A stretch of DNA of 64,000 nucleotides from an uncultured Planctomycetia bacterium (GCA_964354545.1 CAYHAE010000005.1:12414-76413), one strand, 5' to 3'. Shown: positions 2-63,999, counted from the first letter of the stretch. Translations and numbers: made by a program. Notes: generated by a model not told the origin, from the sequence alone.

Positions 2-301
2 CCATACGTCCTCGTCATACCATCGAAATACAATAACCTATTCGGCGCATATATGCTTTTCTACATGTACGCATTCATGGTCATCGGAGGCATCAGGCTG
101 TTCTTCGCGCGTTTGGCGAGGGGTTCCGCGTATCTCTTGATCTTCTTATTTGTCTATTACCTTGCATCGCACCCCTTATTCTTCAAGATCATCATAGCGC
201 GGCATAGGGCGCCGCTGCACCCGTTCTTCATCATCCTGTTCGCGTTGGGTTTCTTTTACATATGGGATTGGATCAAAAAGAATTCTTACCAGGCACTATG
301 A
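2..301 (+). CDS. Partial CDS (5' end outside window): C-terminal part of a hydrophobic integral membrane protein
   Basis: The reading frame is open from base 2 with no upstream stop and continues into the listed 53..301 ORF. The translation is very hydrophobic (FYMYAFMVIGGIRLFF, LLIFLFVYYLA, FFIILFALGFFYIW). Function is not assignable. Confidence 0.35.
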   Translation, partial: PYVLVIPSKYNNLFGAYMLFYMYAFMVIGGIRLFFARLARGSAYLLIFLFVYYLASHPLFFKIIIARHRAPLHPFFIILFALGFFYIWDWIKKNSYQAL

Positions 302-1761
302 ACGATAGTAGAAAAAAAGCAGTCCTCATATATCCTCCCACCGGCCTCTACGACAGAAGCGACCGTTGTCAGTCGTATCTCGAGAGCGAAACGGGTCAGC
401 TCATCTCTCCTCCCATGGATCTCGCGTACATGGCTGCCGTGCTCGAAAAGGCAGGATACCATTGTTTCGTGAGAGACTACCCGGTTGAAAAGAAAGGGTG
501 GCCGGACCTCGAACGCGACCTCGAGAGGGAGCGGCCCTCCCTGCTCGCGGTAAGCACGACCCTGTCGACCCTGAGCGATGACCTGAGGGCATGCGACATC
601 GCGAAGAGGATCGACAGCGGCTGTCTTACGGTAGGGAAGGGTGGATATGTGGGAGATGAGAGCGAATCGATACTGAGGATGAACCCCCGCCTCGACATCT
701 TCATAAATTACGAGCCGGAATTCGTCATGGATGATATCGCCCGCTCCCGTCCTCTCGATTCCATCAAGGGGATAAGCTTCAGGAGAGGCGAGGAGATCGT
801 CAACAATCCCCCGAGGCCGTTCGACGGCGACCTCGACACCCTTCCGATGCCTGCGCGGCACCTCATAAAAAACGAGTTCTACAAGATGCCGGATACGAGG
901 GAGACTTTTACCACGATCTTCACAGGCAGGGGATGCCCGTTCCGTTGTATCTTTTGTCTCGCGGGAAAAGTGGGCGGGAAGGCCTTGAGGCTTCGTTCGC
1001 CCTCACACGTGATAGCGGAACTCGAAGAGTGCATACGTTCGTTCCGCATAAGGAATTTCTGGATAAGGGCGGATACGTTCACATTCAACAAAAAGTGGGT
1101 CCTCGAGATATGCCGTCTCATGATAGAGAAGAAGTTTTCCATACGGTGGATGACGAATAGCCGCGTCGATATGGTCGACGACGAGATGCTGGGGCTCATG
1201 AAGCGCTCCGGCTGCACGGTGATCGGATTCGGAGTGGAGAGCGGCAGCCAGGACCTCCTTGACAAGATGAAAAAGGGCATTACGCTCTCGCAGACCAAGG
1301 ATGCGGTCGCGATGTGCCGGAGGCACGGAATCAAGACGTACCTGAACTTCGTCATCGGGCTGCCGTGGGAAAGCGAGGATACTTTTCACGAGACGATCCG
1401 GTTCGCAAAGTCCTTGCCTGCCGATATGTATAATTTCAGCCTCTCCTACCCATTCCCGGGGACGGAGCTCTATGAGTACGCGAAGCAGAACGGGCTTTTG
1501 AGGTCTGACGACGCCCTCGCGCGCGTGTACGGGTTTTTCGAGCCCGTCGCGGACACCCTCTATATGAAAAAGGACAGGCTCGCCCAATTGAAGGCGATCG
1601 CATTCAGAAGCGTCATGCTCGATCCGCGGTTCATACTGAGGACCATTTCCGCGACGCGGTCCCCGGCGCTTTTGGTGTCGTATCTGCAGGAGGCGATCAG
1701 GCTCTTCAGGGTGACGCACGGGGTGAGCAGGATGCAGGAGGCCTCACGGGGTCGACGATGA
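298..1761 (+). CDS. Cobalamin (B12)-binding radical SAM enzyme (class B radical SAM)
   Basis: The N-terminus has a B12-binding-like Rossmann segment (KAVLIYPPTGLYD...DLAYMAAVLEKAGYHC). The radical SAM cysteine motif is GRGCPFRCIFC (CxxxCxxC). The ATG at 298 overlaps the upstream stop as ATGA. It is paralogous to four other ORFs in the window. Confidence 0.85.
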   Translation: MNDSRKKAVLIYPPTGLYDRSDRCQSYLESETGQLISPPMDLAYMAAVLEKAGYHCFVRDYPVEKKGWPDLERDLERERPSLLAVSTTLSTLSDDLRACDIAKRIDSGCLTVGKGGYVGDESESILRMNPRLDIFINYEPEFVMDDIARSRPLDSIKGISFRRGEEIVNNPPRPFDGDLDTLPMPARHLIKNEFYKMPDTRETFTTIFTGRGCPFRCIFCLAGKVGGKALRLRSPSHVIAELEECIRSFRIRNFWIRADTFTFNKKWVLEICRLMIEKKFSIRWMTNSRVDMVDDEMLGLMKRSGCTVIGFGVESGSQDLLDKMKKGITLSQTKDAVAMCRRHGIKTYLNFVIGLPWESEDTFHETIRFAKSLPADMYNFSLSYPFPGTELYEYAKQNGLLRSDDALARVYGFFEPVADTLYMKKDRLAQLKAIAFRSVMLDPRFILRTISATRSPALLVSYLQEAIRLFRVTHGVSRMQEASRGRR

Positions 1762-2528
1762 GCGCGCATGCAGTATCAGAGGTATGGGTCGATAAATTGG
1801 AGAGCGAGCACGAGTACTTCCCGCCCTACGTGTGCAGGGAGTTCTTCACCCGGCTGGTCTCCACGCGATGGATATCATCTCTCATAAAGGACCCCTCCGC
1901 GGCAGCTTTTCTGGAGGCGGGATGCGGCATAGGACGGTTTGGCATCGCCATTGCGACCGCAGGGCGGAAGGTTACCCTCATGGACTGCTCCGAGAAGAGC
2001 CTCCAGGCAGCACGCCGCCTCAAGGAACTCGCTGAGGGCTATTTTGGCCCTCTTGATGTGGAGTGCCTCAAGGGCGAGCTTGAGCGCACGCGGTTCAAAG
2101 ACGGGATATTCGACGCGACTTTCAATGAAGGCGTGTTGGAGCACTGGAGCGATCGCTGCGAGCGGATAGGCATGCTGTCGGAGATGGCAAGGGTCACGAA
2201 GGCCGGCGGGCTCGTATCGGTGAGGGTCGTGAATACAAGAAATGCGTTGTATAATTTTCTTTTCCTGGCGTCGCTGAAGAAGACGATACCATTTTGCCAC
2301 AGGTACGACCTCAAGGGTCTCAGGCGCGAAATGGAAGACGCGGGCCTCGATGTCGTGTACTGTGACGGCGAAGTCATCAACGACCCCGGCGTGTGGACGA
2401 GGCGCGGGTGGCTCATCGGGCTATTGAAGGCGGCGGGCTTCGTGATAAACCGCCTGCCAAAGCGTTTCAGAGAGGTCTTGTGCCCGTCCATCTTCTGCAT
2501 CGGCGTAGTGAAGAGGTCGCAGCGATGA
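1758..2528 (+). CDS. Class I SAM-dependent methyltransferase
   Basis: Motif I LEAGCGIGRFG is followed by a typical acidic-residue strand (VTLMDCSE). There is a 4-bp ATGA overlap with the upstream gene. Confidence 0.75.
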   Translation: MSAHAVSEVWVDKLESEHEYFPPYVCREFFTRLVSTRWISSLIKDPSAAAFLEAGCGIGRFGIAIATAGRKVTLMDCSEKSLQAARRLKELAEGYFGPLDVECLKGELERTRFKDGIFDATFNEGVLEHWSDRCERIGMLSEMARVTKAGGLVSVRVVNTRNALYNFLFLASLKKTIPFCHRYDLKGLRREMEDAGLDVVYCDGEVINDPGVWTRRGWLIGLLKAAGFVINRLPKRFREVLCPSIFCIGVVKRSQR

Positions 2529-3940
2529 AGGTCCTACTGGTCAATCCGTCTCAGGAGAAGGTATACGGGGTAAAGATGTCTCCGATATATCCTCCGCTCG
2601 GCGTGCTCTATATAGGCGCGGCTCTCAAGAAACGCGGCCATGACGTGAGGCTGCTCGATGTCGACGTCGACGGGGTCACGCCGCAGACGTTCAGAGGGAC
2701 GCTTGAGTCGTTCAACCCAAGGGCCGTCGGCATCACGAGCGTCACGCCGACGGTCAAAGACGGGCTCAGGTGGGCATCCGAGACAAAAAAATTCGATCCG
2801 TCTATCCGCGTCATTTTCGGAGGGATACACGCGACCATAGCCCCTTTGGAACTGATCCGCGAGACGTGCGTGGATTTCGTGGCCTTTGGCGAAGGCGAGA
2901 AGACCGTCGTAGAGCTCGCGGAAAGGATCGAGGACGGCACGGGGTCCTATTCCGACATACGCGGCATCCTCTATAAAGTGGGAAGCGACGTTATCCGGAA
3001 CAGCCCCCGGGAGCTCATCGAGGACCTCGACGAAATAGAGTTCCCCGACACCGGCCTTCTCAGATCCCTCGCATGCTATGCCCCGCCCGATGCCGTCCGC
3101 ACCCCCGTCGCCACCATCATGACGTCCCGCGGATGCCCGGGGGATTGCACCTTCTGCTGCAGCAAATACATGTTCACGCGGCGCGTCAGGCTGCGGAGCG
3201 TTGACAATATTGTCCGTGAGATAGACCGCCTCGTCGATTCGTACCATGCGAAAGAGATCCACATCGCGGACGATACGTTCACGGTCAACAAGAAAAGGGT
3301 CGTCGATTTCTGCGAACGGGTCCGGGAAAGGGGATACGATCTGCAGTTTGAATTCATGAACGGCCTCAGGGCCGATTTTGTCGACGAAGATATCTTGAGG
3401 GCGCTCAGATCAATACGCGTGAGGAACCTCGGGTTCGGAGTAGAGTCGGGGAGCGATGAGGTGCTGAGGCTCGCGAAGAAGAACATCGATCTAAAGAAGG
3501 TGAAGAGCGCATTCTCCCTCGCCAAGAAGTTCGGCTTTGAGACCTGGGCGTTCTTCATCATAGGCCTCCCGGGAGAGACGGCCAGGTCCGTAGAGCAGTC
3601 GATACGGCTCGCCATCGAGCTTGATCCGGACTTCGCCAAATTCCTCATCCTGAAGCCTTATCCGGGAAGCGAGGTATTTGACTACCTCTCCGAGCGCAAC
3701 CTCATCGACAGCTACGATTACGACAACTACGGTGTCTACACACAACCGGTCCACCATCTGCCTGAGATGTCCAAGGAGGATATGGTGAGATGGCAGAAGA
3801 GGGCATTCGTACAATTCTATTTGCGCCCTCGAAAATTGTTAGGGCATGCGCTTCGGATAAGGTCATTTACCCAGCTGAAACTTGCTCTGAGAGGCCTGCA
3901 ATTTATAGCATTCAATATTTTTAGAGGGCGCGAGAGATGA
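2525..3940 (+). CDS. Cobalamin (B12)-binding radical SAM enzyme
   Basis: The ORF-track start at 2393 was trimmed to the ATG at 2525 (MKVLLVNPS), which overlaps the upstream stop. The B12-binding N-domain is VLYIGAALKKRGHDV. The radical SAM motif is SRGCPGDCTFCCS. Confidence 0.85.
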   Translation: MKVLLVNPSQEKVYGVKMSPIYPPLGVLYIGAALKKRGHDVRLLDVDVDGVTPQTFRGTLESFNPRAVGITSVTPTVKDGLRWASETKKFDPSIRVIFGGIHATIAPLELIRETCVDFVAFGEGEKTVVELAERIEDGTGSYSDIRGILYKVGSDVIRNSPRELIEDLDEIEFPDTGLLRSLACYAPPDAVRTPVATIMTSRGCPGDCTFCCSKYMFTRRVRLRSVDNIVREIDRLVDSYHAKEIHIADDTFTVNKKRVVDFCERVRERGYDLQFEFMNGLRADFVDEDILRALRSIRVRNLGFGVESGSDEVLRLAKKNIDLKKVKSAFSLAKKFGFETWAFFIIGLPGETARSVEQSIRLAIELDPDFAKFLILKPYPGSEVFDYLSERNLIDSYDYDNYGVYTQPVHHLPEMSKEDMVRWQKRAFVQFYLRPRKLLGHALRIRSFTQLKLALRGLQFIAFNIFRGRER

Positions 3941-4123: not shown

Positions 4124-4152
4124 TTGACAACGCATTATGAATAATATATAAT
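4124..4152 (+). promoter_or_regulatory. Sigma70-like promoter (TTGACA, 17 bp spacer, TATAAT)
   Basis: TTGACA lies at 4124-4129. An exact 17-bp spacer follows, then TATAAT at 4147-4152. This is about 40 bp upstream of the ATG at 4193, in an AT-rich intergenic region. Confidence 0.55.
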
Positions 4153-5737: not shown

Positions 5738-5739
5738 GC

Positions 5740-43047: not shown

Positions 43048-43048
43048 A

Positions 43049-51395: not shown

Positions 51396-51397
51396 CG

Positions 51398-54584: not shown

Positions 54585-54592
54585 GATAAAAG

Positions 54593-56011: not shown

Positions 56012-56066
56012 ATCTTTGCGAGGTATGTGCTCGTGCTCGAGAAATAGCGCAACCGCAGGCATTGTT

Positions 56067-58772: not shown

Positions 58773-59899
58773 AAGGACACAGGACAAAGGACACAAAGTC
58801 ACTAGGTCACCAAGTCACCACGTCACCAGGAGACAGGACACGACGAACATCCACCGTCCTCCTCACCGGCAACACGGGCTATATAGGGACCGTGATGACG
58901 GGGTGCTTACGGGAAGCGGGGTATAAGGTCGTGGGCCTCGACAGCGACTGGTTCAAAAGGAATACCCTTTTTCCGGTCCCTGAGGACTCGCGGCCAGATA
59001 CACAGATCGTATGCGATATCCGCGACGTGCGTGCCGAAGACCTCGATGGGATCGATTCCGTGATCCATCTCGCAGGGCTCTCCAATGACCCCCTCGGCGA
59101 GATCAACCCGCGGCTCACCGATGATATCAACCACAAGGCGACCATGAGGCTCGCGGAACTGTGCAGGGCACAAGGCATCGGGCGATTTTTGTTTGCGTCG
59201 TCATGCAGCATCTACGGAATAGCGCCTAAGGACGCACCGATAGACGAGAGCGGTGCGGTTAACCCTCTCACGGCATATGCGAAGGCGAAGGTCGACGCGG
59301 AGCGTGGTCTCGCACAGATGGCAGATGACGGTTTTCATCCCGTATTCATGCGTAACGCCACCGTCTATGGGCTCTCTCCGAGGCTCAGGCTCGACCTCGT
59401 CGTCAACAACCTCCTCGCGTGGGCGTACCTCATGGGCGAGATCGCGATCATGAGCGACGGCACGCCCTGGCGTCCGATCATCCACATTCAGGACTTCTGC
59501 GCGGCATTTATCGCGGCACTCGGGGCGCCGGTGGAGAAGGTCCAGGGCCAGGCATTCAACGTAGGCGTTGACGGCGAGAACTATCGGGTGAGGGAGATTG
59601 CCGAAGAGGTGAACAGGGCCCTGCCTCAGTCGACGATAAAGATATTGAATAAGACAGGGCCGGACGAAAGGACGTACAGGGTCGATTTCTCAAAGATCAA
59701 GACCGCGTTGCCCGGGTTCACACCACAGTGGGATCTCAAGAAGGGTATTGCTGAGCTCCTCGAGGCGTATCGACGGTATGGACTCACGCGCGAAGACTTC
59801 GAATCGGACAAGTACTTCCGCATCAAGGCGGTGAAGGCGCTGCGTGCGTCAGGAGAGCTGGATGAGGAGCTGGCGTGGACACACAAGGACACAAGGTAG
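58769..59899 (+). CDS. NAD-dependent sugar nucleotide epimerase/dehydratase with repeat-encoded low-complexity N-terminus
   Basis: The Rossmann motif is VLLTGNTGYIGTVMTGCL. The YxxxK is TAYAKAKVDAE. The first 30 codons are built from GGACACA/GTCACCA heptad-like DNA repeats. There is an ATGA overlap with rfbF. Confidence 0.75.
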   Translation: MKGHRTKDTKSLGHQVTTSPGDRTRRTSTVLLTGNTGYIGTVMTGCLREAGYKVVGLDSDWFKRNTLFPVPEDSRPDTQIVCDIRDVRAEDLDGIDSVIHLAGLSNDPLGEINPRLTDDINHKATMRLAELCRAQGIGRFLFASSCSIYGIAPKDAPIDESGAVNPLTAYAKAKVDAERGLAQMADDGFHPVFMRNATVYGLSPRLRLDLVVNNLLAWAYLMGEIAIMSDGTPWRPIIHIQDFCAAFIAALGAPVEKVQGQAFNVGVDGENYRVREIAEEVNRALPQSTIKILNKTGPDERTYRVDFSKIKTALPGFTPQWDLKKGIAELLEAYRRYGLTREDFESDKYFRIKAVKALRASGELDEELAWTHKDTR

Positions 59900-59989
59900 A
59901 TCCTTCGCCCGCTAAAATGCTTCCATAAGGTCGCATTTTTTAACGCGGGCGCAGGATCACATTTGCTTCGCAAATGTGAGGAGGTTCAC

Positions 59990-60439
59990 ATGATAGACGG
60001 CGTAAAGGTGATACCGCTCAAAAAGATCTGCGACGAACGGGGGATGATCATGCATATGCTCAAGAGCTCCGACCCCCACTTCGAACAGTTCGGGGAGGTC
60101 TATTTTGCTACCGCCTATCCAGGCGTCGTGAAGGCGTGGCATGAGCACACGAAACAGGTCCAATTCTACGCGTGCATCGACGGCATGATCAAACTGGTCC
60201 TTTACGATGCCCGTGGCCACTCGCCGACAAAGGGTGAGCTTATGGAGCTCTTCATCGGCGATGACAATTACCAACTCGTCCGGATACCCACGGGGGTCAT
60301 CAATGGGTGGAAGAATATAGGGACGGAGACCGCGATCCTCGCGAACTGTACGACGCAACCTCATGATCCCGACGAGATGCAAAGATGTGACCCTCACAGC
60401 GATAAGGTGCCCTACGACTGGGCGAGGGTGGATAGATAA
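59990..60439 (+). CDS. RmlC-like cupin sugar-nucleotide 3,5-epimerase/ketoisomerase
   Basis: The cupin signature is FGEVYFATAYPGVVKAWHEHTKQVQFYACIDGMIKLVLYDAR...LVRIPTGVINGW. The start was trimmed to the ATG at 59990, 6 nt after a GAGGAGG RBS. Confidence 0.6.
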   Translation: MIDGVKVIPLKKICDERGMIMHMLKSSDPHFEQFGEVYFATAYPGVVKAWHEHTKQVQFYACIDGMIKLVLYDARGHSPTKGELMELFIGDDNYQLVRIPTGVINGWKNIGTETAILANCTTQPHDPDEMQRCDPHSDKVPYDWARVDR

Positions 60440-60469
60440 TAAAATTCGTCCGCGAAGCGGATCCGCCTT

Positions 60470-60600
60470 CGACGGAAAATCCGAATATCGAAATCCGAAT
60501 ATTGAAACCTCAGAAATCGTTGCTACAAAAGCGCGGTTTCGAATTTAGGATTTCGAATTTAGGATTTGTTTAGGATTTCGGATTTCGAGTTTAGAATTTA
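60470..60600. repeat. Palindromic tandem-repeat array (AATCCGAATATYGAAA x2 ... TTCGAATTTAGGATT x2, GGATTTCGGATTTCGAG)
   Basis: The forward half-array lies at 60477-60507 and the reverse-complement-type half-array at 60536-60598. The array ends 10 bp before the RBS of the 60618 gene. Confidence 0.5.
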
Positions 60601-60617
60601 TATTTAAAGGAGGCTCT

Positions 60618-61529
60618 GTGGCTCAAAATTCTACGAACGATGTGCTGGTGATTGGCGCGCAGGGCCTTATAGGCCGGCAGGTCGCGAATATCCTCACCGA
60701 ACACGGCGTGAGCTGGAAGGGCACGTTCTTCACGAGGCCCGCGGAAGGGCTCCTGAAATTGGATATCACCGATCCTGCCTCCGTGACGAAGGTCTTTACG
60801 GAAGTCCGGCCGAGGGCGGTGTTCCACTGCGCAAACCTTGCAGGTGGCGTCGATTTCTGCGAGACGAACCCGAAGAGGGCCACCGCATTCCACCTGAGCG
60901 CGACGAAGGAGATAGGGGCATGGTGCGTAAAGATTGGAGCGCCGCTCGTGTTCCTGTCGACCGATTACATATTTGACGGCATGCGGGGTCCCTATAAGGA
61001 AGACGACGCGACGAATCCCCTCAATTCGTACGGGGTCCTGAAATTCGAGGCCGAGAGGTTGATCCAGGCCAGCCTTACGTCGTTCATCATTGTGCGGACC
61101 ACGAACGTGTACGGATGGGACCCCGATACGAAGACGCCGAACTACATCATGGCGCTCTACAGGGCCCTCAAAGAAGGTAAACCCTTCAACGCCCCCTCGT
61201 ACCTGTGGGGGAATCCTACATACGTCGACGACCTCGCTCGCGCCGTTGTCGAGCTGTGGGAAGGCGGAGCGAACGGGATCTTTCATGTCGTGGGAGGCAG
61301 CTTCGTGAACAGGCACGAATGGGTGCTCGAGGCGTGCAGGGTTCTGGGGTTAGACGCCTCCCTCGCGAAAGAGATAAAATTCCCCTCGCCTAATATGGTC
61401 CAGCGGCCGATGAGGTCCTGGCTCAACCCCGAAAAATTCACATCGTCGTACAGGACCGTGCTGCATTCCATGGCCGAGGGCCTGGAACTCATGAAGGCGG
61501 ACATGCAAAACTCACAATATCCGGTTTGA
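60618..61529 (+). CDS. rfbD: dTDP-4-dehydrorhamnose reductase-like (RmlD family)
   Basis: The N-terminal motif is VLVIGAQGLIGRQVANIL. The RmlD motifs LSTDYIFDG and NSYGVLKFEAE are present. The start is GTG at 60618, after an AAAGGAGG RBS. Confidence 0.7.
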   Translation: MAQNSTNDVLVIGAQGLIGRQVANILTEHGVSWKGTFFTRPAEGLLKLDITDPASVTKVFTEVRPRAVFHCANLAGGVDFCETNPKRATAFHLSATKEIGAWCVKIGAPLVFLSTDYIFDGMRGPYKEDDATNPLNSYGVLKFEAERLIQASLTSFIIVRTTNVYGWDPDTKTPNYIMALYRALKEGKPFNAPSYLWGNPTYVDDLARAVVELWEGGANGIFHVVGGSFVNRHEWVLEACRVLGLDASLAKEIKFPSPNMVQRPMRSWLNPEKFTSSYRTVLHSMAEGLELMKADMQNSQYPV

Positions 61530-61628: not shown

Positions 61629-61706
61629 AATCCCCTCCGCAGAAATCCCCGGGCTTTAAACCGGGGATGAATGCGAGCGATAATATTTCTTCTTCGGGGA
61701 GGGAGC
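61629..61706. repeat. MITE/REP-like intergenic element, copy C
   Basis: AATCCCCTCCGCAGAAA is followed by the perfect hairpin ATCCCCGGGCTTTAAACCGGGGAT. The element ends in the inverted terminus TTTCTTCTTCGGGGAGGGAG. The termini are shared with copies A and B. Confidence 0.5.
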
Positions 61707-61738
61707 TCTCGGGCCTAAAGGTCGGAGGGGCTCCACAT

Positions 61739-62641
61739 ATGAATATGCCGCTATTTACCGTTATAATCTCGACCTATAACCGCCGGGACCTCCTCCCCCG
61801 CGCGATACGGAGCGTGCTCGGCCAGACGCTCGGGGACTTTGAGCTCCTCGTGATCGACAATGGGTCGACGGACGATACGCGCTCGGTCGTAGAGGATATC
61901 AAAGACCCGCGGATAAAGTACGTCCTCAGCCCGCACCCCACAGAATCGTGCGATGGGCCCAGGAACCTCGGCATCCAGACGGCGAGAGGGGCCTTCGTCG
62001 CGTTTCTCGATGACGATGATATCTGGTATCCGGAGAGGCTCGCGAAGGTCAAGAAGGCGTTCGACGAACATCCTGATGCGTCGTGCGTGTGCCACAACGA
62101 GATGAAGAACGTGAACGGCCGCATAGACGGCGTATTCCGGTACGGCCCCTGGACGGACGATCTCTACGACCGGCTGCTCTACGAGGGGAACTGCCTCTCT
62201 TCGTGCGGAACGACTATCAAGACCGACGTAGTGAGGCGGTTTGGCGGATTCGATACGAGGCGCGACTATACTGAGGTGGCAGATTTTGACCTCTGGATAC
62301 GTATGGCGGAGAAGGGCGTGAAGACCTTTTTTCTCGATGAGCCGCTTGGTGAATTTTTCCTCACAGAGAGGAATTGGAGCGTCGTGAGCCCCCGTTTCTG
62401 GGCAAAGCAGGCTCTCATGGTCCGGACGCACATCCTTCGCAGCGAGAAGAAGCCTTTTTTCATGGTCTCGAAGAAGGGCATGAGGAAGCTGTTCCAGCTC
62501 TATTTTATCACCGCGAGAGCATACATGCGCTCGAAACAGTATCTGGATGCCTTCCTGTGGTTTCTCAAGGCATCTCTCTTTCTCGTGAGGCGGCCGAGCC
62601 TCATCTTTAGTCCGCGTCCGAGGCCACGATATCATGCATAA
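61739..62641 (+). CDS. GT2 glycosyltransferase
   Basis: The GT2 signature is FTVIISTYNRRDLLPRAIRSVLGQTLGDFELLVIDNGSTDDT...LDDDD. The start was trimmed to the ATG at 61739, 8 nt after a GGAGGGG RBS. Confidence 0.8.
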   Translation: MNMPLFTVIISTYNRRDLLPRAIRSVLGQTLGDFELLVIDNGSTDDTRSVVEDIKDPRIKYVLSPHPTESCDGPRNLGIQTARGAFVAFLDDDDIWYPERLAKVKKAFDEHPDASCVCHNEMKNVNGRIDGVFRYGPWTDDLYDRLLYEGNCLSSCGTTIKTDVVRRFGGFDTRRDYTEVADFDLWIRMAEKGVKTFFLDEPLGEFFLTERNWSVVSPRFWAKQALMVRTHILRSEKKPFFMVSKKGMRKLFQLYFITARAYMRSKQYLDAFLWFLKASLFLVRRPSLIFSPRPRPRYHA

Positions 62642-63797
62642 GAACTACCTCCCTATATACGATGACGGGCGATGTGTCCTCTTTGCCCTCGGCAGGAACG
62701 CGATGTATGCCGCCTGCCTCATGATGAAGCTCGGACAGGGCGACGAGGTCCTCACGCCCGCCTTCGATTGCGACGGCGCGTTACAGCCTTTCAGGGTCCT
62801 CGGCTGCGAGCTCCGCTTTTACCGCTCAGATCCGCATACCTTTTCTGTCGATATCGGGGATATCAAGAGGCGGATCACGCCGAGGACGAAACTGCTCCAC
62901 ATCGTCAACCACTTCGGGATGCCCCAGCCGTGGAATGACCTCGCGTGCCTGCGGAGGGAGACCGGCATCCCGATCCTGGAGGACAACGCATACTCTCTCT
63001 TTTCAAGGTTCCAAGACAAGGCGTTCGGGACGTTCGGGGACATGTCGATATTCTCGATTCGGAAGAATCTCCCCGTCATAGACGGCGGGCTCTTGCGCAT
63101 CAATAATCCCCGCTACGCGAACGAGGTACCGCGGAAGGACCCGAAGTGGATCTATCCGACGGAATGGGGTGCCGCCTTGAGAAGCGTGAAGTCGGTGTTC
63201 GGGGAGGGCTCCTTCGCGGCGCTGCTCAAGCGCGCAGCGCGGAGGTGTGACCCCGCGAGCGCGCCCCCGCCGCCGCTCTATTCTGACTCAAAGGACGGAT
63301 ATCCTGTCTGGCCTGCGCGCGACCGTGTCGGCAGGGACTTCTCGTGCGATTACGTGAGGCCCATGTCGAGATGGGCGAGGATGCAGCTGGAAAAGTTCTC
63401 GGAGAGCGATTACAGCGAAATAGCGGAGAAGAAGAGATGCTACTACGCGTTCTTCTCGAACCGGCTTAAAGATATAAAAGGGATACGTATCCTGTGGCCT
63501 GAACTCCCGGACGGCATCGTACCTTTTTGCCTGTCATGCATGGTCTCCCGCAAGAGGGACGTCCTGCTCGAGCAGCTCCGCCTGAGGTATGATGTCATGG
63601 CCTGGCCCACGCTCTCGAAACTTGTGCTCGACAGGCGTGAGGAGTTCCCCGAGGTAGGGCTTCTGGGGCGCACGCTCCTGCAGATCAATCTGCCCGTTGA
63701 CAGGGTCCGGTCGCCTGAGTTTGCGCGCCATGCGGGGCGCCTCGTCAGCGATATATATGCGTTCTCGGAGAAGCACCTTTCCCACTCATCCTCATGA
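62634..63797 (+). CDS. DegT/DnrJ/EryC1-like PLP-dependent enzyme (aminotransferase/dehydratase family, divergent)
   Basis: The family-like core is LFALGRNAMYAACLMMKLGQGDEVLTPAFDC...ILEDNAYSL...SIFSIRKNLPVIDGGLL, with a Lys in the expected region. The ATG at 62634 overlaps the upstream stop. Confidence 0.6.
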   Translation: MHKNYLPIYDDGRCVLFALGRNAMYAACLMMKLGQGDEVLTPAFDCDGALQPFRVLGCELRFYRSDPHTFSVDIGDIKRRITPRTKLLHIVNHFGMPQPWNDLACLRRETGIPILEDNAYSLFSRFQDKAFGTFGDMSIFSIRKNLPVIDGGLLRINNPRYANEVPRKDPKWIYPTEWGAALRSVKSVFGEGSFAALLKRAARRCDPASAPPPPLYSDSKDGYPVWPARDRVGRDFSCDYVRPMSRWARMQLEKFSESDYSEIAEKKRCYYAFFSNRLKDIKGIRILWPELPDGIVPFCLSCMVSRKRDVLLEQLRLRYDVMAWPTLSKLVLDRREEFPEVGLLGRTLLQINLPVDRVRSPEFARHAGRLVSDIYAFSEKHLSHSSS

Positions 63798-63810
63798 GGG
63801 GCATACGCTC

Positions 63811-63999
63811 ATGGAATCACGTTGGATAGAAGAGATCCGGTCCTTTAAGGATATCGCGCGCGAATGGGACGAGGCGGTCTTCCGCGCATGGGACGAAAAC
63901 CCTTTTTTGCTCTCGGATTTTATCATTACGTGGTGGGGCCGTTTTTACGAGAAGGCCGAACTGCGGATACTGGTCGTCTATGATGAAGGGAAGATCGCG
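63811..63999 (+). CDS. Partial CDS (3' end outside window): FemAB/CelD-like GNAT acetyltransferase N-terminus
   Basis: The N-terminal pattern MESRWIEEIRSFKDIAREWDEAVFRAWDENPFLLSDFIITWWGRF resembles the Acetyltransf_6 (BioF2/CelD-like) N-terminus (WDALV...SPF.S..W...WW.HF). Confidence 0.4.
   Translation, partial: MESRWIEEIRSFKDIAREWDEAVFRAWDENPFLLSDFIITWWGRFYEKAELRILVVYDEGKIA

What the first reader, a model, noticed from the sequence alone, without database searches (positions are those of the whole stretch)
298..63999. Unidirectional 64-kb supercluster combining nonulosonic-acid synthesis, PAPS sulfation and seven radical SAM enzymes
Three normally separate toolkits sit in one co-oriented, translationally coupled gene array:
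- A legionaminic/pseudaminic-type CMP-nonulosonic-acid pathway (PtmE-like, dehydratase, two DegT, NeuD-like, NeuB, NeuC, NeuA, PtmG-like amidotransferase).
- A complete sulfate-activation module (sat, cysC, cysQ) with a Sulfotransfer_3-like enzyme.
- Five B12-binding radical SAM plus two SPASM radical SAM enzymes.

Established knowledge links NeuB/NeuC/NeuA/Ptm genes to Leg/Pse-type sugars on flagellin, capsule or LPS, and class B radical SAMs to C-/O-methylation of sugars in antibiotic pathways. A locus that would make a sulfated, radical-SAM-tailored nonulosonic-acid glycan is not a described pathway to my knowledge. The lack of Wzx/Wzy and the presence of an MsbA-like exporter suggest ABC-dependent export.
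Basis: partly seen in the sequence, partly recalled or inferred. Interest (0 to 1): 0.85.

Follow-up and report, generated by a model that had tools for sequence, protein, structure and literature searches.

The report
Sulfating, radical-SAM-rich legionaminic-acid glycan island
A 64-kb, one-directional block of 58 genes from an uncultured bacterium builds a sialic-acid-like (legionaminic acid) cell-surface sugar coat with its own sulfate-activation genes and seven radical-SAM enzymes; the gene calls are right and the core recurs in other uncultured phyla, but nobody has described its product.

Summary
All 58 supported genes lie on the + strand.
- five B12-binding and two SPASM radical SAM enzymes
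- Sat, CysC, CysQ and a sulfotransferase
- a legionaminic-acid pathway: LegB, LegC-like, NeuD/PglD, NeuB, NeuC, a WbuX-type amidotransferase, a NeuA-like enzyme and a PtmE-like enzyme

The array is not one coupled operon. Eight intergenic gaps of 118-266 bp split it into about nine units.

The main new result is a conserved, unannotated cassette at 27.5-35 kb: GFO oxidoreductase, Ldh_2 dehydrogenase, B12-rSAM, a NeuA-like enzyme, and a GT2 fused to a NeuA-like domain. Large GT-B-type proteins and an MsbA-type ABC exporter usually accompany it. It recurs at 54-74% identity in MAGs named Omnitrophota, Brocadiaceae/Planctomycetes and Saganbacteria.

Sulfation is an accessory to this cassette. It appears in three lineages, once through a different sulfotransferase family. 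A GtrB-like GT2, B12-rSAM and GT-C module and a Kdo-like pyruvate-aldolase/KdsB module are also present.

The best reading is a surface-glycan island that makes a legionaminic-acid-bearing, sulfated, radical-SAM-tailored glycan. Which sugar is sulfated or radical-modified is not shown. I rate it a new variant of a known kind, of moderate to high interest.

The parts
262..1761 (+). B12-binding radical SAM enzyme 'B12a'
   Evidence: Pfam Radical_SAM 90.9 bits and B12-binding 33.2 bits (marginal, gathering score 32.1). CPFRCIFC at residue 225. No NCBIfam equivalog; best hit is HpnJ, 214 bits against a cut-off of 578.
1758..2528 (+). Class I SAM methyltransferase
   Evidence: Pfam Methyltransf_11/25. 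Overlaps the preceding stop by 4 nt.
2525..3940 (+). B12-binding radical SAM enzyme 'B12b'
   Evidence: Pfam B12-binding 85.5 bits and Radical_SAM 94.8 bits. CPGDCTFC motif. Best NCBIfam hit is BchE, 229 bits against 481.
4124..4152 (+). Promoter-like site, perfect sigma-70 consensus (TTGACA, 17 nt, TATAAT), 40 nt upstream of the regulator gene
   Evidence: 12 of 12 matches, the only perfect site in the 60 kb scanned (60001-64000 not scanned). It lies in the 252-bp gap 3941-4192.
4193..4687 (+). Winged-helix regulator (MarR_2/CudC-like), head of the sulfation unit
   Evidence: Pfam MarR_2 25.2 bits, below the gathering score. NCBIfam CudC 69.8 bits against 218. A 51%-identical homologue sits directly upstream of the sulfotransferase in the Omnitrophota loci L002 and L007.
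4697..7267 (+). SsuA-family ABC importer: binding protein 4697-5737, ATPase 5740-6531, permease 6548-7267
   Evidence: NCBIfam SsuA_fam 214 bits against 163.5. Pfam NMT1_2, ABC_tran and BPD_transp_1.
7534..8148 (+). APS kinase CysC
   Evidence: Pfam APS_kinase 235 bits.
8145..9317 (+). ATP sulfurylase Sat (PUA_2 plus ATP-sulfurylase domains)
   Evidence: Pfam 321.7 and 164.6 bits. 4-nt overlap with cysC.
9314..10156 (+). 3'(2'),5'-bisphosphate nucleotidase CysQ (recycles PAP)
   Evidence: NCBIfam TIGR01331 288 bits against 229.
10167..11138 (+). LegB-type NAD-dependent 4,6-dehydratase
   Evidence: TIGR04180 494.8 bits against 475.
11131..12237 (+). LegC-family aminotransferase (DegT)
   Evidence: TIGR04181 401 bits against 420, just below cut-off. 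Pfam DegT 356 bits.
12234..12878 (+). NeuD/PglD-family N-acetyltransferase (LegH role)
   Evidence: TIGR03570 208 bits against 161. Pfam PglD_N plus Hexapep.
12865..13887 (+). Nonulosonic acid synthase NeuB/LegI
   Evidence: TIGR03569 487.5 bits against 400. The PseI model scores only 300 bits against 340.
13884..15053 (+). Hydrolysing 2-epimerase NeuC/LegG
   Evidence: TIGR03568 451.6 bits against 236.
15252..16388 (+). WbuX-type N-acetyl sugar amidotransferase (PP-loop SGGKDS); predicted to form an acetamidino group
   Evidence: TIGR03573 357 bits against 203. No Pfam hit.
16480..20130 (+). GFO/MocA oxidoreductase (16480-17550), second DegT aminotransferase (17547-18803), NeuA/PseF-like cytidylyltransferase (18800-19567), GNAT acetyltransferase (19555-20130)
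   Evidence: Pfam. PseF model 177 bits against 206. UDP-GlcNAc 3-dehydrogenase model 108 bits against 450. PseH model 56 bits against 93.
20149..21252 (+). PtmE-like CBS plus sugar-1-phosphate nucleotidyltransferase
   Evidence: Pfam CBS plus NTP_transferase. Homologues sit next to PglD and NeuC in L002, L019 and L049.
21263..23298 (+). Two radical SAM/SPASM enzymes (21263-22219, 22240-23298)
   Evidence: Pfam Radical_SAM plus SPASM. CxxxCxxC and C-terminal Cys clusters. No equivalog; best hit is TIGR04317, 133 and 109 bits against 380.
23309..23845 (+). Hexapeptide O-acetyltransferase
   Evidence: Pfam Hexapep. NCBIfam hits to LacA, Maa and WcaF types, all below cut-off.
23842..25716 (+). 'X672': conserved protein of about 625 aa with unknown fold family
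   Evidence: No hit in Pfam, NCBIfam or PDB. Homologues at 24-43% identity sit beside the cassette in L006, L009, L012-L014, L019, L020 and L088.
25796..27220 (+). PAPS-type sulfotransferase with no signal peptide
   Evidence: Pfam Sulfotransfer_3 33.7 bits against 27. The model's top 50 PDB matches are all sulfotransferases. Residues R19, G21, S22, K23, P177 and S183 of the two PAPS-loop motifs are invariant. The profile finds about 22 close representatives and 245 at E<1e-30.
27474..28739 (+). Cassette gene 1: GFO/IDH/MocA oxidoreductase
   Evidence: Pfam. 54-70% identical in 12 other loci.
28736..29935 (+). Cassette gene 2: Ldh_2-family 2-hydroxyacid/2-oxoacid dehydrogenase
   Evidence: Pfam Ldh_2 347 bits. 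No equivalog reached. 49-74% identical in other loci.
29932..31635 (+). Cassette gene 3: B12-binding radical SAM enzyme 'B12c'
   Evidence: Pfam. About 100 orthologues at 50-66% identity. CxxxCxxC plus three further invariant Cys (C251, C266, C313) in 32 orthologues.
31632..32771 (+). Membrane-anchored SGNH/GDSL hydrolase
   Evidence: Pfam Lipase_GDSL_2 46.8 bits. N-terminal hydrophobic helix. 47% identical homologue in the cassette of L088.
32768..33577 (+). Cassette gene 4: NeuA-like cytidylyltransferase
   Evidence: Pfam CTP_transf_3. Best PDB relatives are CMP-Neu5Ac synthetases. 61-69% identical in other loci.
33574..34941 (+). Cassette gene 5: GT2 glycosyltransferase fused to a NeuA-like cytidylyltransferase domain
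   Evidence: Pfam Glycos_transf_2 (residues 6-159) plus CTP_transf_3 (residues 245-358). PDB NeuA hit. 60-73% identical in other loci.
35049..35927 (+). FkbM-family methyltransferase (start uncertain; the ORF opens at 34674)
   Evidence: Pfam Methyltransf_21. TIGR01444 64.9 bits against 37.7.
35946..37850 (+). 'X634': GT-B-fold protein, candidate CMP-sugar (nonulosonic acid) transferase
37870..39687 (+). ABCB-type half-transporter (MsbA/Sav1866 class)
   Evidence: Pfam ABC_membrane plus ABC_tran. PDB Sav1866 263 bits, MsbA 247 bits. Six TM-like segments.
39806..41355 (+). HpcH/HpaI class II pyruvate aldolase (39806-40573) and KdsB-like cytidylyltransferase (40570-41355)
   Evidence: Pfam HpcH_HpaI 141 bits. 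NF009905 292 bits against 255. The pair recurs at 56-63% identity in L008, L013 and L046; L009 shows the aldolase alone.
41352..46176 (+). Rest of the second sugar-acid module: hexapeptide acetyltransferase, GFO oxidoreductase, GmhA-like SIS isomerase, methyltransferase, D-2-hydroxyacid dehydrogenase, IMPase-family phosphatase
   Evidence: Pfam. gmhA model 110 bits against 209, PGDH model 211 bits against 454. IMPase family.
46166..48163 (+). 'X665': surface-carbohydrate protein distantly related to the LIC13510 family
   Evidence: TIGR04326 89.5 bits against 250. No Pfam or PDB hit. The C-terminal segment aligns weakly with the X634 profile.
48198..50673 (+). B12-binding radical SAM enzyme 'B12d' (48198-49706) with a GtrB/ArnC-type polyprenyl-phosphate glycosyltransferase (49723-50673)
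   Evidence: Pfam. The GT2 matches GtrB (5ekp) full-length at 251 bits and ArnC at 156 bits, with C-terminal TM helices. Both genes are 64% identical and adjacent in Omnitrophota L090.
50682..53253 (+). NDP-sugar pathway: nucleotidyltransferase and two SDR dehydratase/epimerase-reductases
   Evidence: Pfam NTP_transferase, GDP_Man_Dehyd and Epimerase.
53514..57938 (+). Membrane GT2 (53514-54584), B12-binding radical SAM enzyme 'B12e' (54593-56011), and GT-C-type membrane glycosyltransferase (56016-57938)
   Evidence: Pfam. PMT_2 27.5 bits against 26.1. 11 TM-like segments. GT-C homologue 45% identical in L090. GC3 is 0.42 and 0.52 for the first two genes against about 0.70 elsewhere.
57957..61529 (+). 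Second deoxyhexose-type pathway: nucleotidyltransferase, SDR, RmlC-like cupin epimerase, RmlD-like reductase
   Evidence: Pfam NTP_transferase, Epimerase, dTDP_sugar_isom and RmlD_sub_bind (179 bits).
61667..63797 (+). GT2 glycosyltransferase (61667-62641) and a DegT-related protein that matches only half of the DegT model (62634-63797); the array continues past the window end
   Evidence: Pfam. An open ORF runs from 63697 to the window end.

Best explanation
The window is most of a surface-glycan biosynthesis island from an uncultivated, probably anaerobic, Gram-negative-type bacterium. Its phylum is not established. The relatives of its signature proteins are mostly Omnitrophota MAGs.

Inferred working model:
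1. A regulated unit imports a sulfur source (SsuA-type ABC importer), makes PAPS (Sat, then CysC) and removes the inhibitory by-product PAP (CysQ).
2. A GDP-sugar-route legionaminic acid pathway (PtmE-like, LegB, LegC-like, NeuD/PglD, NeuC, NeuB, NeuA-like) makes a CMP-activated 5,7-diamino nonulosonic acid. A WbuX-type amidotransferase converts one N-acetyl group to an acetamidino group.
3. A conserved, undescribed cassette further processes a CMP-ulosonic acid in the cytoplasm. Its genes are a GFO oxidoreductase, an Ldh_2 dehydrogenase, a B12-radical SAM enzyme, a NeuA-like enzyme and a GT2::NeuA-like fusion, helped by methyltransferases, acetyltransferases and two SPASM radical SAM enzymes. 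The proposed chemistry is redox or epimerisation steps plus radical C-methylation or deoxygenation.
4. Large GT-B-type proteins (X634, possibly X665 and X672) add the product to a lipid-linked glycan.
5. The cytoplasmic sulfotransferase O-sulfates one residue of that glycan from PAPS.
6. A second module (pyruvate aldolase, SIS isomerase, phosphatase, KdsB-like enzyme) supplies a CMP-activated Kdo-like 3-deoxy-ulosonic acid.
7. The MsbA-type ABC half-transporter flips the lipid-linked product.
8. GtrB-like GT2 enzymes, each beside a B12-radical SAM enzyme, make polyprenyl-phosphate sugars. A GT-C enzyme transfers these onto the glycan or protein outside the cytoplasm.

Shown: gene families, gene order, conservation of the cassette and of several gene pairs, the fold of X634, and the fold and motifs of the sulfotransferase.

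Inferred: every substrate, the order of steps, the acceptor of the sulfate, and the chemistry of each radical SAM enzyme.
For: - Family support for all modules.
- All 58 genes are co-oriented and 26 junctions overlap.
- The cassette GFO/Ldh_2/B12-rSAM/NeuA-like/GT2::NeuA-like is present in 8 of 9 metagenome loci of at least 8 kb that carry an orthologue of the B12 enzyme. It also occurs in L006, L088 and L089 at 54-74% identity.
- An Omnitrophota locus (L088/L090) keeps 15 of the window's genes in nearly the same order: WbuX, X672, GFO, Ldh_2, GDSL, B12c, NeuA-like, GT2::NeuA-like, B12, X634, SPASM, ABC exporter, B12d, GtrB-like GT2, GT-C.
- Sulfation joins the cassette in three lineages, twice through Sulfotransfer_3 (window, L006) and once through Sulfotransfer_1 at the same position (L088). 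PAPS genes lie beside the sulfotransferase in L006 and L002.
- No PAPS reductase or sulfite reductase is present in the window, so the PAPS genes are not an assimilation operon.
- The sulfotransferase fold and PAPS-binding motifs are supported.
- X634 has a GT-B fold.
- Both NeuA-like cassette domains are closest to CMP-sialic acid synthetases.
- The GT2 at 49723 matches GtrB and ArnC full-length.
- Distant paralogues of the cassette's B12-rSAM lie within 10 kb of NeuB in 10 of 41 loci of at least 8 kb.
Against: - No initiating phosphoglycosyltransferase, oligosaccharyltransferase, ligase or acceptor protein is in the window, so the final carrier (LPS, capsule, S-layer or other protein) is unknown.
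- Eight gaps of 118-266 bp mean co-transcription is not implied.
- Sulfation genes are absent from all 13 cassette loci found in the metagenome scan, so sulfation is not intrinsic to the cassette.
- None of the seven radical SAM enzymes reaches any curated equivalog, so methylation is only the commonest precedent.
- X672 and X665 have no fold evidence, and profile comparison with X634 is not significant.
- GC3 varies from 0.42 to 0.80 between genes, which suggests a mosaic assembled from parts that need not act on one product.
Confidence: 0.55

Rival explanations
1. This is a composite island. Several independent glycan pathways lie side by side because surface-carbohydrate genes tend to cluster. 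They would include a legionaminic-acid glycoconjugate, a separate sulfated polysaccharide, a Kdo-like capsule or LPS component, and a GtrB/GT-C decoration system. On this reading, sulfate and radical-SAM chemistry do not touch the nonulosonic-acid glycan.
For: - Eight sizeable intergenic gaps and a perfect promoter consensus ahead of the sulfation unit.
- Mosaic GC3.
- Sulfation genes are absent from most cassette loci.
- Two B12-rSAMs sit beside GT2 genes (one GtrB-like) rather than nonulosonic-acid genes.
- There are three separate NDP-sugar pathways, five GT2s, one modelled GT-B protein plus two large proteins of unknown fold, and one GT-C.
- Sludge polymers contain both nonulosonic acids and sulfate without evidence that they sit on one molecule.
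Against: - The sulfotransferase sits inside the cassette neighbourhood, between X672 and the GFO gene, in the window and in L006. A non-homologous sulfotransferase occupies the equivalent place in L088.
- Long-range gene order from WbuX to GT-C is kept between genomes of 54% and 38% GC, which argues for selection on the ensemble.
- The window holds a single exporter.
Confidence: 0.3
2. Sat, CysC and CysQ are housekeeping sulfate-assimilation genes that merely neighbour a glycan locus, and the 'sulfotransferase' has another role.
For: Sat and CysC are common assimilation genes. The Pfam score of the sulfotransferase is low, 33.7 bits. An SsuA-type importer and a regulator are typical of sulfur-scavenging operons.
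Against: - No PAPS/APS reductase or sulfite reductase is in the window.
- CysQ is only needed where PAP is produced, that is, by sulfotransfer or PAPS reduction.
- In L002 and L006, APS kinase or Sat fusions flank sulfotransferases inside glycan loci.
- The sulfotransferase fold and PAPS-binding motifs are conserved.
- The regulator homologue travels with the sulfotransferase in Omnitrophota.
Confidence: 0.07
3. This is a secondary-metabolite cluster for an aminoglycoside- or nucleoside-like small molecule exported by the ABC pump, not a cell-surface glycan locus.
For: B12-rSAMs, GFO oxidoreductases, DegT aminotransferases, methyltransferases, a MarR-like regulator and an ABCB-type exporter are the usual kit of aminoglycoside clusters. 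This comparison rests on my own knowledge of the gentamicin GenD1/GenK/GenD2/GenS2 and apramycin AprD4 systems. The AprD4 model hits B12a at 121 bits, below its cut-off of 500.
Against: - NeuB, NeuC and four CMP-ulosonate synthetase-like domains are present.
- A GtrB-like polyprenyl-phosphate GT2 and a GT-C with 11 TM-like segments are present.
- No aminocyclitol synthase or other scaffold enzyme is among the 58 products.
- The cassette occurs in MAGs of small-genome lineages such as Omnitrophota, Saganbacteria and Nomurabacteria.
Confidence: 0.05

Closest known systems
Campylobacter jejuni CMP-legionaminic acid pathway (PtmE/PtmF/PtmA, LegB, LegC, LegH, LegG, LegI, LegF, PtmG) in the flagellin glycosylation island. 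Cited from my own knowledge (Schoenhofen et al. 2009).
   Same: The enzyme set and architectures match: CBS plus nucleotidyltransferase PtmE-like, LegB above its equivalog cut-off, LegC-like, NeuD/PglD, NeuC, NeuB, a NeuA-like enzyme, and a WbuX/PtmG-type amidotransferase for an acetamidino derivative.
   Different: No Maf (PF01973) transferase and no flagellin in the window. The window adds PAPS genes, seven radical SAM enzymes, a second sugar-acid module, GT-B proteins of unknown family, an ABC exporter and a GT-C.
Legionella pneumophila O-antigen locus (homopolymer of 5-acetamidino-7-acetamido-8-O-acetyl-legionaminic acid, exported by an ABC transporter). Cited from my own knowledge.
   Same: A legionaminic acid pathway with an amidotransferase, O-acetyltransferases, rhamnose-type genes and no Wzx/Wzy.
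   Different: Legionella uses a Wzm/Wzt ABC-2 transporter. Here the exporter is an MsbA/Sav1866-type half-transporter. Legionella has no sulfation or radical SAM genes.
Tannerella forsythia general protein O-glycosylation with terminal Pse5Am7Gra or a legionaminic acid derivative, and its TagB-like GT-B transferases Tanf_01245/BFO_1060 (PMC5420450).
   Same: A heavily tailored nonulosonic acid (amidino plus acyl variants) is added by a GT-B/TagB-like enzyme encoded next to the CMP-sugar genes, with a methyltransferase nearby. X634 has a GT-B fold with TarL and TagF among its structural matches and a weak BFO_1060 hit.
   Different: X634 is about 190 residues longer and scores 18.8 bits against a family cut-off of 200, so it is not a member. 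Tannerella has no sulfation or radical SAM enzymes in that locus.
Halorubrum sp. PV6 / HRPV-1 N-linked glycan: sulfated hexuronic acid plus terminal 5-N-formyl-legionaminic acid. PMC6137143 was returned but not read; the glycan composition is from my own knowledge (Kandiba et al. 2012).
   Same: It is a natural glycan that carries both sulfate and a legionaminic acid, so the combination is chemically precedented.
   Different: It is archaeal, N-linked through AglB, and the sulfate is on a different sugar. No linked PAPS or radical SAM gene set is described there.
Cobalamin-dependent radical SAM sugar tailoring in aminoglycoside pathways: GenD1 and GenK C-methyltransferases working with the GFO-type GenD2 and the aminotransferase GenS2, and the AprD4/AprD3 radical dehydratase-reductase pair. 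Cited from my own knowledge; reviews PMC9204698 and PMC12931638 were listed.
   Same: A B12-domain radical SAM enzyme is encoded beside GFO-type and other NAD(P) oxidoreductases and aminotransferases acting on one sugar ring. This gives two precedented chemistries for the cassette enzyme: C-methylation, or deoxygenation followed by reduction.
   Different: Those act on small-molecule pseudo-oligosaccharides in actinomycetes. None is known for nonulosonic acids or for polyprenyl-linked sugars. All five enzymes here score far below every curated model.
GtrB/GtrA/Gtr(type) O-antigen glucosylation and ArnC/ArnD/ArnT lipid A modification. Structures 5ekp and 9bhc; pathway details from my own knowledge.
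   Same: A GT2 with C-terminal membrane helices makes a polyprenyl-phosphate sugar, and a GT-C enzyme transfers it outside the cytoplasm. In the Arn system the lipid-linked sugar is modified (by ArnD) before flipping, which is the role proposed here for the adjacent B12-rSAM.
   Different: No GtrA or ArnE/F-type small flippase was identified. A radical SAM enzyme as the middle component is not described.
S-layer O-glycan of the anammox bacterium Ca. Kuenenia stuttgartiensis (bioRxiv 10.1101/2020.12.03.409086).
   Same: An uncultured-type anaerobe from a lineage whose MAGs carry the cassette (Brocadiaceae/Planctomycetes). Its glycan holds 'yet-undescribed' CMP-activated nonulosonic acid derivatives whose fragment ions (261, 275, 289) differ by 14 Da, together with methylated HexNAc and dimethyl-deoxyhexose.
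   Different: No genes were assigned to those modifications and no sulfate was reported. Whether Kuenenia itself has the cassette was not tested here.
Vertebrate sialate O-sulfotransferases (PMC9304399, listed; the gene names Wscd1/Wscd2 are from my own knowledge, as the paper was not read).
   Same: PAPS-dependent sulfation of a nonulosonic acid is a known reaction.
   Different: Eukaryotic Golgi enzymes. The Foldseek search placed the window's enzyme near TPST, CurM and Stf-type sulfotransferases. No prokaryotic sulfated nonulosonic acid was found in the literature search.

Membership tests
CMP-legionaminic acid pathway (GDP-GlcNAc route) | LegB NAD-dependent 4,6-dehydratase | tested here: met
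   TIGR04180 494.8 bits against a cut-off of 475.
CMP-legionaminic acid pathway (GDP-GlcNAc route) | LegC aminotransferase | tested here: inconclusive
   TIGR04181 401 bits against 420. It is still the best model, well ahead of PseC at 254 bits.
CMP-legionaminic acid pathway (GDP-GlcNAc route) | N-acetyltransferase (LegH/PglD type), hydrolysing 2-epimerase (LegG/NeuC), and PEP-dependent synthase (LegI/NeuB) | tested here: met
   TIGR03570 208 bits against 161, TIGR03568 452 against 236, TIGR03569 487 against 400. The PseI model is below its cut-off. The NeuB model does not separate Neu5Ac synthases from legionaminic acid synthases.
CMP-legionaminic acid pathway (GDP-GlcNAc route) | CMP-nonulosonate synthetase | tested here: inconclusive
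   Pfam CTP_transf_3 93.6 bits. The only curated model hit is PseF, 177 bits against 206.
CMP-legionaminic acid pathway (GDP-GlcNAc route) | The product is a legionaminic (D-glycero-D-galacto) rather than another 5,7-diamino isomer | not testable with these tools
   Needs NMR or MS of the sugar, or enzymology.
PAPS-dependent sulfation system | ATP sulfurylase, APS kinase and PAP phosphatase | tested here: met
   Pfam 322 and 235 bits. CysQ TIGR01331 288 bits against 229.
PAPS-dependent sulfation system | Sulfotransferase fold with 5'-PSB and 3'-PB PAPS-binding loops | tested here: met
   Pfam 33.7 bits against 27. All top 50 Foldseek PDB matches are sulfotransferases, with modest TM-scores of 0.19-0.55. 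Key residues of FGRSGSKFF and RTRHPIERLKS (R19, G21, S22, K23, P177, S183) are invariant in the family.
PAPS-dependent sulfation system | Identity of the acceptor (nonulosonic acid or another residue) | not testable with these tools
   Only gene position is available: the gene lies between X672 and the cassette.
Class B (cobalamin-dependent) radical SAM methyltransferases | N-terminal B12-binding domain plus a radical SAM core with CxxxCxxC | tested here: met
   All five proteins. B12a is marginal for the B12 domain, 33.2 bits against 32.1.
Class B (cobalamin-dependent) radical SAM methyltransferases | Membership of a characterised methylase family (GenK, Fom3, PhpK, HpnP/R, TsrM and others) | tested here: not met
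   Every curated model scores far below its cut-off. Best hits are HpnJ and BchE, which from my own knowledge is not a methylase (BchE; HpnJ is uncharacterised).
Class B (cobalamin-dependent) radical SAM methyltransferases | Methyl transfer to an unactivated carbon | not testable with these tools
   Needs an anaerobic enzyme assay.
Radical SAM/SPASM enzymes | Radical SAM core plus a C-terminal SPASM Cys-rich domain | tested here: met
   Pfam, both proteins. Cys patterns. No equivalog was reached, and no sulfatase-maturase model appears among the 25 best of 53 and 49 matching models shown.
ABC-transporter-dependent polysaccharide export (Wzm/Wzt or KpsM/KpsT) | ABC-2 type permease with a separate ATPase | tested here: not met
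   The only exporter is a fused ABC_membrane plus ABC_tran half-transporter of the MsbA/Sav1866 class.
Wzx/Wzy-dependent glycan assembly | Wzx flippase and Wzy polymerase | tested here: not met
   No such Pfam family is among the 58 products. One Polysacc_synt_C hit on the soluble RmlC-like cupin is spurious. The rest of the contig was not seen.
Flagellin nonulosonic-acid glycosylation island | Maf-type transferase (PF01973) and flagellin genes nearby | tested here: not met
   Absent from the window. The flanks were not available.
BFO_1060/TagB-like nonulosonic acid transferases | GT-B fold | tested here: met
BFO_1060/TagB-like nonulosonic acid transferases | Sequence membership (NF046086) | tested here: not met
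   18.8 bits against a cut-off of 200, over 67 residues only.
GtrB/ArnC plus GT-C periplasmic glycosylation | Polyprenyl-phosphate GT2 with C-terminal membrane helices | tested here: met
   The GT2 at 49723-50673 matches GtrB 5ekp full-length at 251 bits and ArnC at 156 bits. TM-like segments at residues 222-290.
GtrB/ArnC plus GT-C periplasmic glycosylation | GT-C transferase | tested here: inconclusive
   PMT_2 27.5 bits against 26.1. 11 TM-like segments. No PDB or NCBIfam match.
GtrB/ArnC plus GT-C periplasmic glycosylation | Small flippase (GtrA or ArnE/F) | not tested
   ORFs under 90 aa were not examined.

The most novel reading that the evidence does not exclude
The conserved cassette (GFO, Ldh_2, B12-radical SAM, NeuA-like, GT2::NeuA-like, with X634/X672) is a previously unrecognised tailoring and transfer pathway for CMP-activated nonulosonic or Kdo-like acids. 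It is widespread in Omnitrophota, Planctomycetes/Brocadiaceae, Saganbacteria and other uncultured lineages.

[quoted passage not shown] In some lineages, including this one, a dedicated PAPS sulfotransferase would O-sulfate it. That would give the first prokaryotic C-modified and sulfated nonulosonic acids. It might also explain the undescribed nonulosonic acid variants, whose fragment ions differ by 14 Da, seen on the Kuenenia S-layer.

A second novel element is a three-part module in which a B12-radical SAM enzyme modifies a polyprenyl-phosphate-linked sugar between a GtrB-like synthase and a GT-C transferase.
Probability: 0.25. Interest if true: 0.8.

Novelty: new variant of a known kind. 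Interest (0 to 1): 0.6.

Why it matters
Nonulosonic acids are the outermost, charge-bearing sugars of many microbial surfaces. They are targets of phages, lectins and immune receptors.

Environmental biofilm polymers are known to be both 'sialylated' and sulfated, but the genes for bacterial glycan sulfation are largely unknown (PMC10483923). This locus gives a concrete genetic link between PAPS supply, a sulfotransferase clade and a legionaminic-acid glycan.

It also exposes a conserved five-gene cassette, with about a hundred orthologues and no annotation. The cassette places cobalamin-dependent radical SAM chemistry inside sugar-acid biosynthesis in phyla that have no cultured representatives.

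If the chemistry is as proposed, it would add new classes of sialic-acid-like sugars and new radical SAM reactions. The genes are compact enough for heterologous reconstitution.

Tried and rejected
- **Flanks of the source contig.** Exact-sequence look-ups of window proteins failed, or returned only a 1.46-kb Logan contig. The 30 kb outside the window and the organism's name remain unknown.
- **Genome-collection scan.** A scan with the sulfotransferase profile found a single Omnitrophota MAG at 42% identity and not the source.
- **Sequence searches for the large proteins.** PDB searches with X634, X665, X672 and the GT-C found nothing usable. A relaxed Pfam search added nothing.
- **Homology among the three large proteins.** Profile comparisons of X634 with X665 and X672 were not significant (probability below 4%). 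I do not claim that the three are homologous.
- **Riboswitches and tRNA genes.** Rfam at gathering thresholds and ARAGORN found none.
- **SPASM enzymes as sulfatase maturases.** I considered this because of the sulfur context. I rejected it because no such model appears among the NCBIfam hits shown (25 of 53 and 49 listed) and no sulfatase is present.
- **B12 enzymes as hopanoid or ladderane lipid enzymes.** I considered this because of HpnJ and 'ladder' model hits. I rejected it because the scores are a fraction of the cut-offs and the neighbours are all sugar enzymes.
- **A Wzx remnant.** The Polysacc_synt_C hit on the product of 59963-60439 is spurious; the protein is a soluble cupin.
- **Joining L002 to L088.** I could not show directly that the PAPS/legionaminic acid region and the cassette of the Omnitrophota relative are contiguous. 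The two loci do not overlap, and the 158-kb contig's coordinates for the cassette were not returned. The only support is that three proteins list the same longest contig of 158,459 bp.

Full report
**1. What is in the window**

The window holds 58 ORFs with family or conservation support, all on the + strand, covering about 96% of the sequence. The long minus-strand ORFs are shadows inside supported + strand genes. There are no tRNA genes and no Rfam matches.

With starts chosen as the first start codon near the preceding stop, 26 of 57 junctions overlap by 4-13 nt, mostly the ATGA/GTGA type. Many others are 1-20 nt apart.

Eight gaps of 118-266 bp begin at 3941, 7268, 15054, 27221, 39688, 53254, 60440 and 61530. 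They divide the array into about nine probable units. The gap before the sulfation unit contains the only perfect sigma-70 consensus in the 60 kb scanned, at 4124-4152.

The array is therefore strictly unidirectional and dense, but it is not a single coupled operon.

**2.

All of them hold.

- Radical SAM: five proteins combine a B12-binding domain with a radical SAM core, and two combine a radical SAM core with a SPASM domain. All seven have CxxxCxxC.
- Sulfate activation: CysC, Sat and CysQ are unambiguous. CysQ is above its NCBIfam cut-off.
- Sulfotransferase: this is the weakest call by sequence, Pfam 33.7 bits against 27. Its AlphaFold model (pLDDT 78) matches only PAPS sulfotransferases among its 50 best PDB hits. 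The loops FGRSGSKFF and RTRHPIERLKS match, from my own knowledge, the 5'-PSB and 3'-PB motifs; six of their residues are invariant in its relatives.
- Nonulosonic acid block: it is of the legionaminic type. LegB is above its equivalog cut-off and LegC just below. NeuD/PglD, NeuC and NeuB are above theirs, and the pseudaminic models score clearly lower. A WbuX-type amidotransferase is above its cut-off, and the CBS plus nucleotidyltransferase protein has the PtmE architecture.

**3.

(a) Three large proteins have no Pfam family: 23842-25716 (X672), 35946-37850 (X634) and 46166-48163 (X665).
- X634 has a faint hit to the BFO_1060 family. These are the Tannerella enzymes shown genetically to add pseudaminic or legionaminic acid derivatives.
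- X665 is a distant relative of the LIC13510 surface-carbohydrate family.
- X672 remains unassigned.
- X634 and X665 each follow a block ending in a CMP-sugar synthetase gene (X672 follows the legionaminic block after the SPASM and acetyltransferase genes), so I treat them as candidate sugar-acid transferases. This is an inference.

(b) A second sugar-acid module lies at 39.8-46.2 kb. It holds an HpcH-type pyruvate aldolase and a KdsB-like cytidylyltransferase (above its NCBIfam cut-off). It also holds a GmhA-like SIS isomerase, an IMPase-type phosphatase, a 2-hydroxyacid dehydrogenase, a GFO oxidoreductase, an acetyltransferase and a methyltransferase. Functionally it parallels KdsD/KdsA/KdsC/KdsB, with a pyruvate aldolase in place of the PEP-dependent synthase. 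This is also an inference.

(c) There is a periplasmic-decoration module.
- The GT2 at 49723-50673 matches GtrB full-length at 251 bits and ArnC at 156 bits, and has C-terminal membrane helices.
- A second membrane GT2 (53514-54584) is followed by a B12-rSAM and a GT-C-type protein with 11 membrane segments.

(d) The exporter is an MsbA/Sav1866-class half-transporter, the class that, from my own knowledge, also contains the PglK flippase.

**4. Related loci**

The source is an NCBI contig of 94,237 bp whose flanks I could not fetch.

Sulfotransferase relatives. The sulfotransferase has only about ten close relatives in the word-indexed search. A full profile search gives about 22 close representatives, within 245 at E<1e-30. 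Their contexts are informative.
- L006 carries X672-like, a PK::APS-kinase fusion, the sulfotransferase, GFO, Ldh_2, B12-rSAM, a methyltransferase, NeuA-like, GT2::NeuA-like and X634-like, at up to 73% identity to the window.
- The Omnitrophota locus L002/L007 carries the regulator homologue, the sulfotransferase, a nucleotidyltransferase, an MFS transporter, APS kinase and a PK::Sat fusion. These are followed by a Sulfotransfer_1 enzyme and then legionaminic-type genes.

Cassette relatives. The B12-rSAM at 29932-31635 has about 100 orthologues at 50-66% identity. They come from MAGs named Omnitrophota, Saganbacteria, Brocadiaceae/Planctomycetes, Deltaproteobacteria and Nitrospinae.
- Among 80 metagenome loci fetched with its profile, 8 of the 9 orthologue-bearing loci of at least 8 kb carry GFO, Ldh_2, NeuA-like and GT2::NeuA-like next to it.
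- An X634 or X672 homologue usually accompanies them, and often an ABC exporter. The HpcH/KdsB pair lies downstream in L008 and L013 (and the aldolase in L009).
- None of the cassette proteins reaches a curated NCBIfam model.
- X634 homologues are all annotated 'hypothetical'.

**5. The Omnitrophota relative**

L088/L090 has 38% GC, against 54% in the window. It keeps 15 of the window's genes in nearly the same order:
- WbuX (31% identity)
- X672 (24%)
- GFO (65%)
- Ldh_2 (66%)
- GDSL (47%)
- B12c (53%)
- NeuA-like (63%)
- GT2::NeuA-like (64%)
- a B12-rSAM
- X634 (42%)
- a SPASM rSAM
- the ABC exporter (32%)
- B12d (64%)
- the GtrB-like GT2 (64%)
- GT-C (45%, partial)

A sulfotransferase of a different Pfam family (Sulfotransfer_1) sits just upstream of its X672 homologue. 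Independent recruitment of two sulfotransferase families to the same neighbourhood is the strongest argument that sulfation acts on a product of this gene set.

Against that, no sulfation gene lies within 10 kb in any of the 13 cassette loci from the metagenome scan. Sulfation is therefore an accessory and not part of the core.

**6. Radical SAM enzymes and sugar-acid genes more widely**

Distant paralogues of the cassette enzyme (27-33% identity) lie within 10 kb of NeuB in 10 of 41 loci of at least 8 kb. Some sit inside legionaminic operons. L049, for example, reads LegC, PglD, NeuB, NeuC, PtmE, NeuA, B12-rSAM, WbuX.

As a rough yardstick, one NeuB per 3-Mb genome would put NeuB within 10 kb (a 20-kb span) of under 1% of random genes. 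That yardstick is my own estimate and not a computed control.

SPASM enzymes also recur beside NeuB, in L038 and L044.

The pairing of a B12-rSAM with a GtrB-like GT2 is conserved at 64% identity in L090, and similar pairs occur in L016, L020, L065 and L089.

**7. Mechanism**

The model in the best explanation follows from these anatomies. It comprises:
- a dedicated PAPS supply
- CMP-legionaminic acid synthesis with amidination
- cytoplasmic tailoring of CMP-sugar acids by the cassette
- transfer by GT-B proteins
- sulfation by a cytoplasmic sulfotransferase
- flipping by the MsbA-type transporter
- external decoration through polyprenyl-phosphate sugars and a GT-C

For the cassette's radical SAM enzyme, two precedented chemistries fit the presence of two adjacent NAD(P) oxidoreductases. 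One is C-methylation, as in GenD1 and GenK. The other is radical dehydration followed by reduction, as in AprD4/AprD3. Both comparisons are from my own knowledge.

The cassette enzyme also has three further invariant cysteines beyond CxxxCxxC. This leaves room for an auxiliary cluster and so for non-methylase chemistry.

None of the substrates is shown.

**8. Comparison with what is known, and novelty**

The parts are known kinds: the Campylobacter and Legionella legionaminic acid pathways, PAPS sulfation, the GtrB/ArnC plus GT-C system, and MsbA-type flippases.

A glycan with both sulfate and legionaminic acid exists in Halorubrum (PMC6137143, returned; composition from my own knowledge). Sialic acid sulfation is known in vertebrates.

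The open literature library has no paper that holds both 'radical SAM' and 'nonulosonic'. It has none linking Omnitrophota to these sugars. It has no prokaryotic gene-level description of nonulosonic acid biosynthesis combined with sulfation. The sludge study reports only chemical co-occurrence and notes that the sulfotransferase genes are unknown.

The anammox S-layer study reports undescribed CMP-activated nonulosonic acid variants whose fragment ions are 14 Da apart, and methylated deoxyhexoses, in a lineage whose MAGs carry the cassette. This is a lead and not a link.

I therefore rate the locus a new variant of a known kind. It is an ordinary type of system, a surface-glycan island, with an undescribed and widely conserved tailoring core and an unusual sulfation accessory.

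**9. Limits**

- The carrier of the glycan is unknown.
- The 3' end of the island lies outside the window.
- Start codons are heuristic.
- Synteny counts come from loci retrieved with one protein's profile and are not a random sample.
- Gene composition is mosaic. GC3 is 0.42-0.52 for the GT2/B12-rSAM pair at 53.5-56 kb against about 0.70 elsewhere. Parts of the island were therefore probably acquired separately.

Noticed in passing
window 4124-4152: A perfect sigma-70 consensus (TTGACA, 17 nt, TATAAT) lies 40 nt upstream of the winged-helix regulator gene. It is the only 12-of-12 site in the 60 kb scanned (1-60000) and suggests a strongly expressed or tightly regulated sulfation unit.
   Followed up: partly
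window 53514-56011: The membrane GT2 and the following B12-rSAM have GC3 of 0.42 and 0.52, against about 0.70 for most genes. The region 19.5-23.3 kb (GNAT, PtmE-like, two SPASM enzymes) is also low, at 0.53-0.61. This looks like recently acquired patches in a mosaic island.
   Followed up: partly
window 27221-27473: The 253-bp gap between the sulfotransferase and the cassette holds a perfect 8-bp G+C palindrome (CCCCGGCC TAAA GGCCGGGG, 27401-27420) and a second hairpin (27279-27294). Both are scored as terminator-like on the minus strand, where there is no gene.
   Followed up: no
window 4193-4687; L002 9378-9923; L007 9414-9863: A small HTH protein is 51% identical between the window and an Omnitrophota MAG. 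In both it sits at the head of the sulfation genes, and in Omnitrophota it is directly upstream of the sulfotransferase. It is only weakly MarR/CudC-like.
   Followed up: partly
L002 14192-16372; L006 8488-9999: In related loci, ATP sulfurylase and APS kinase are each fused to a pyruvate-kinase-family (PF00224) domain. These are unusual architectures for PAPS synthesis enzymes.
   Followed up: no
window 4697-7267; L002 12344-13552: A transporter accompanies the PAPS genes in both lineages but belongs to unrelated families: an SsuA-type ABC importer here and an MFS protein in Omnitrophota. SsuA-type binding proteins normally bind sulfonates rather than sulfate, so the imported sulfur compound is unclear.
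   Followed up: no
window 29932-31635 (alignment A2): The cassette B12-rSAM family has three invariant cysteines (C251, C266, C313) beyond the CxxxCxxC motif, plus a conserved C-terminal extension of about 150 residues. An auxiliary cluster is possible.
   Followed up: no
window 31632-32771: The GDSL/SGNH hydrolase conserved in the cassette has an N-terminal membrane anchor (MIAWIVLILIVLCAVIESL...). From my own knowledge, this differs from the cytoplasmic esterase domain of E. coli NeuA. It may handle O-acetyl groups at the membrane.
   Followed up: no
L089 8350-8778 and 12999-13166: In the Brocadiaceae-type locus, small DUF559/PDDEXK-like ORFs are inserted between cassette genes. They may be remnants of mobile or endonuclease elements.
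   Followed up: no
L089 18423-21674: Downstream of the cassette, this lineage has an HMGL-like protein (with a faint radical SAM hit), a third CTP_transf_3 and a DHDPS/NanA-family aldolase where the window has HpcH plus a KdsB-like enzyme. Different C-C bond-forming enzymes are paired with a cytidylyltransferase at the same position.
   Followed up: no
L014 2899-4740: The X672 homologue in this locus contains an in-frame stop codon. It is either a pseudogene or an assembly error.
   Followed up: no
window 62634-63797: This 387-aa protein matches only positions 42-194 of the 360-position DegT model. It is either a divergent PLP enzyme or a degenerate copy.
   Followed up: no
L001 (Logan run ERR3804374): A 1.46-kb read-assembly contig from a public run carries an identical sat gene plus matching cysC (100%) and cysQ (96%) fragments. 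The same organism, or a very close strain, is present in that sample.
   Followed up: no
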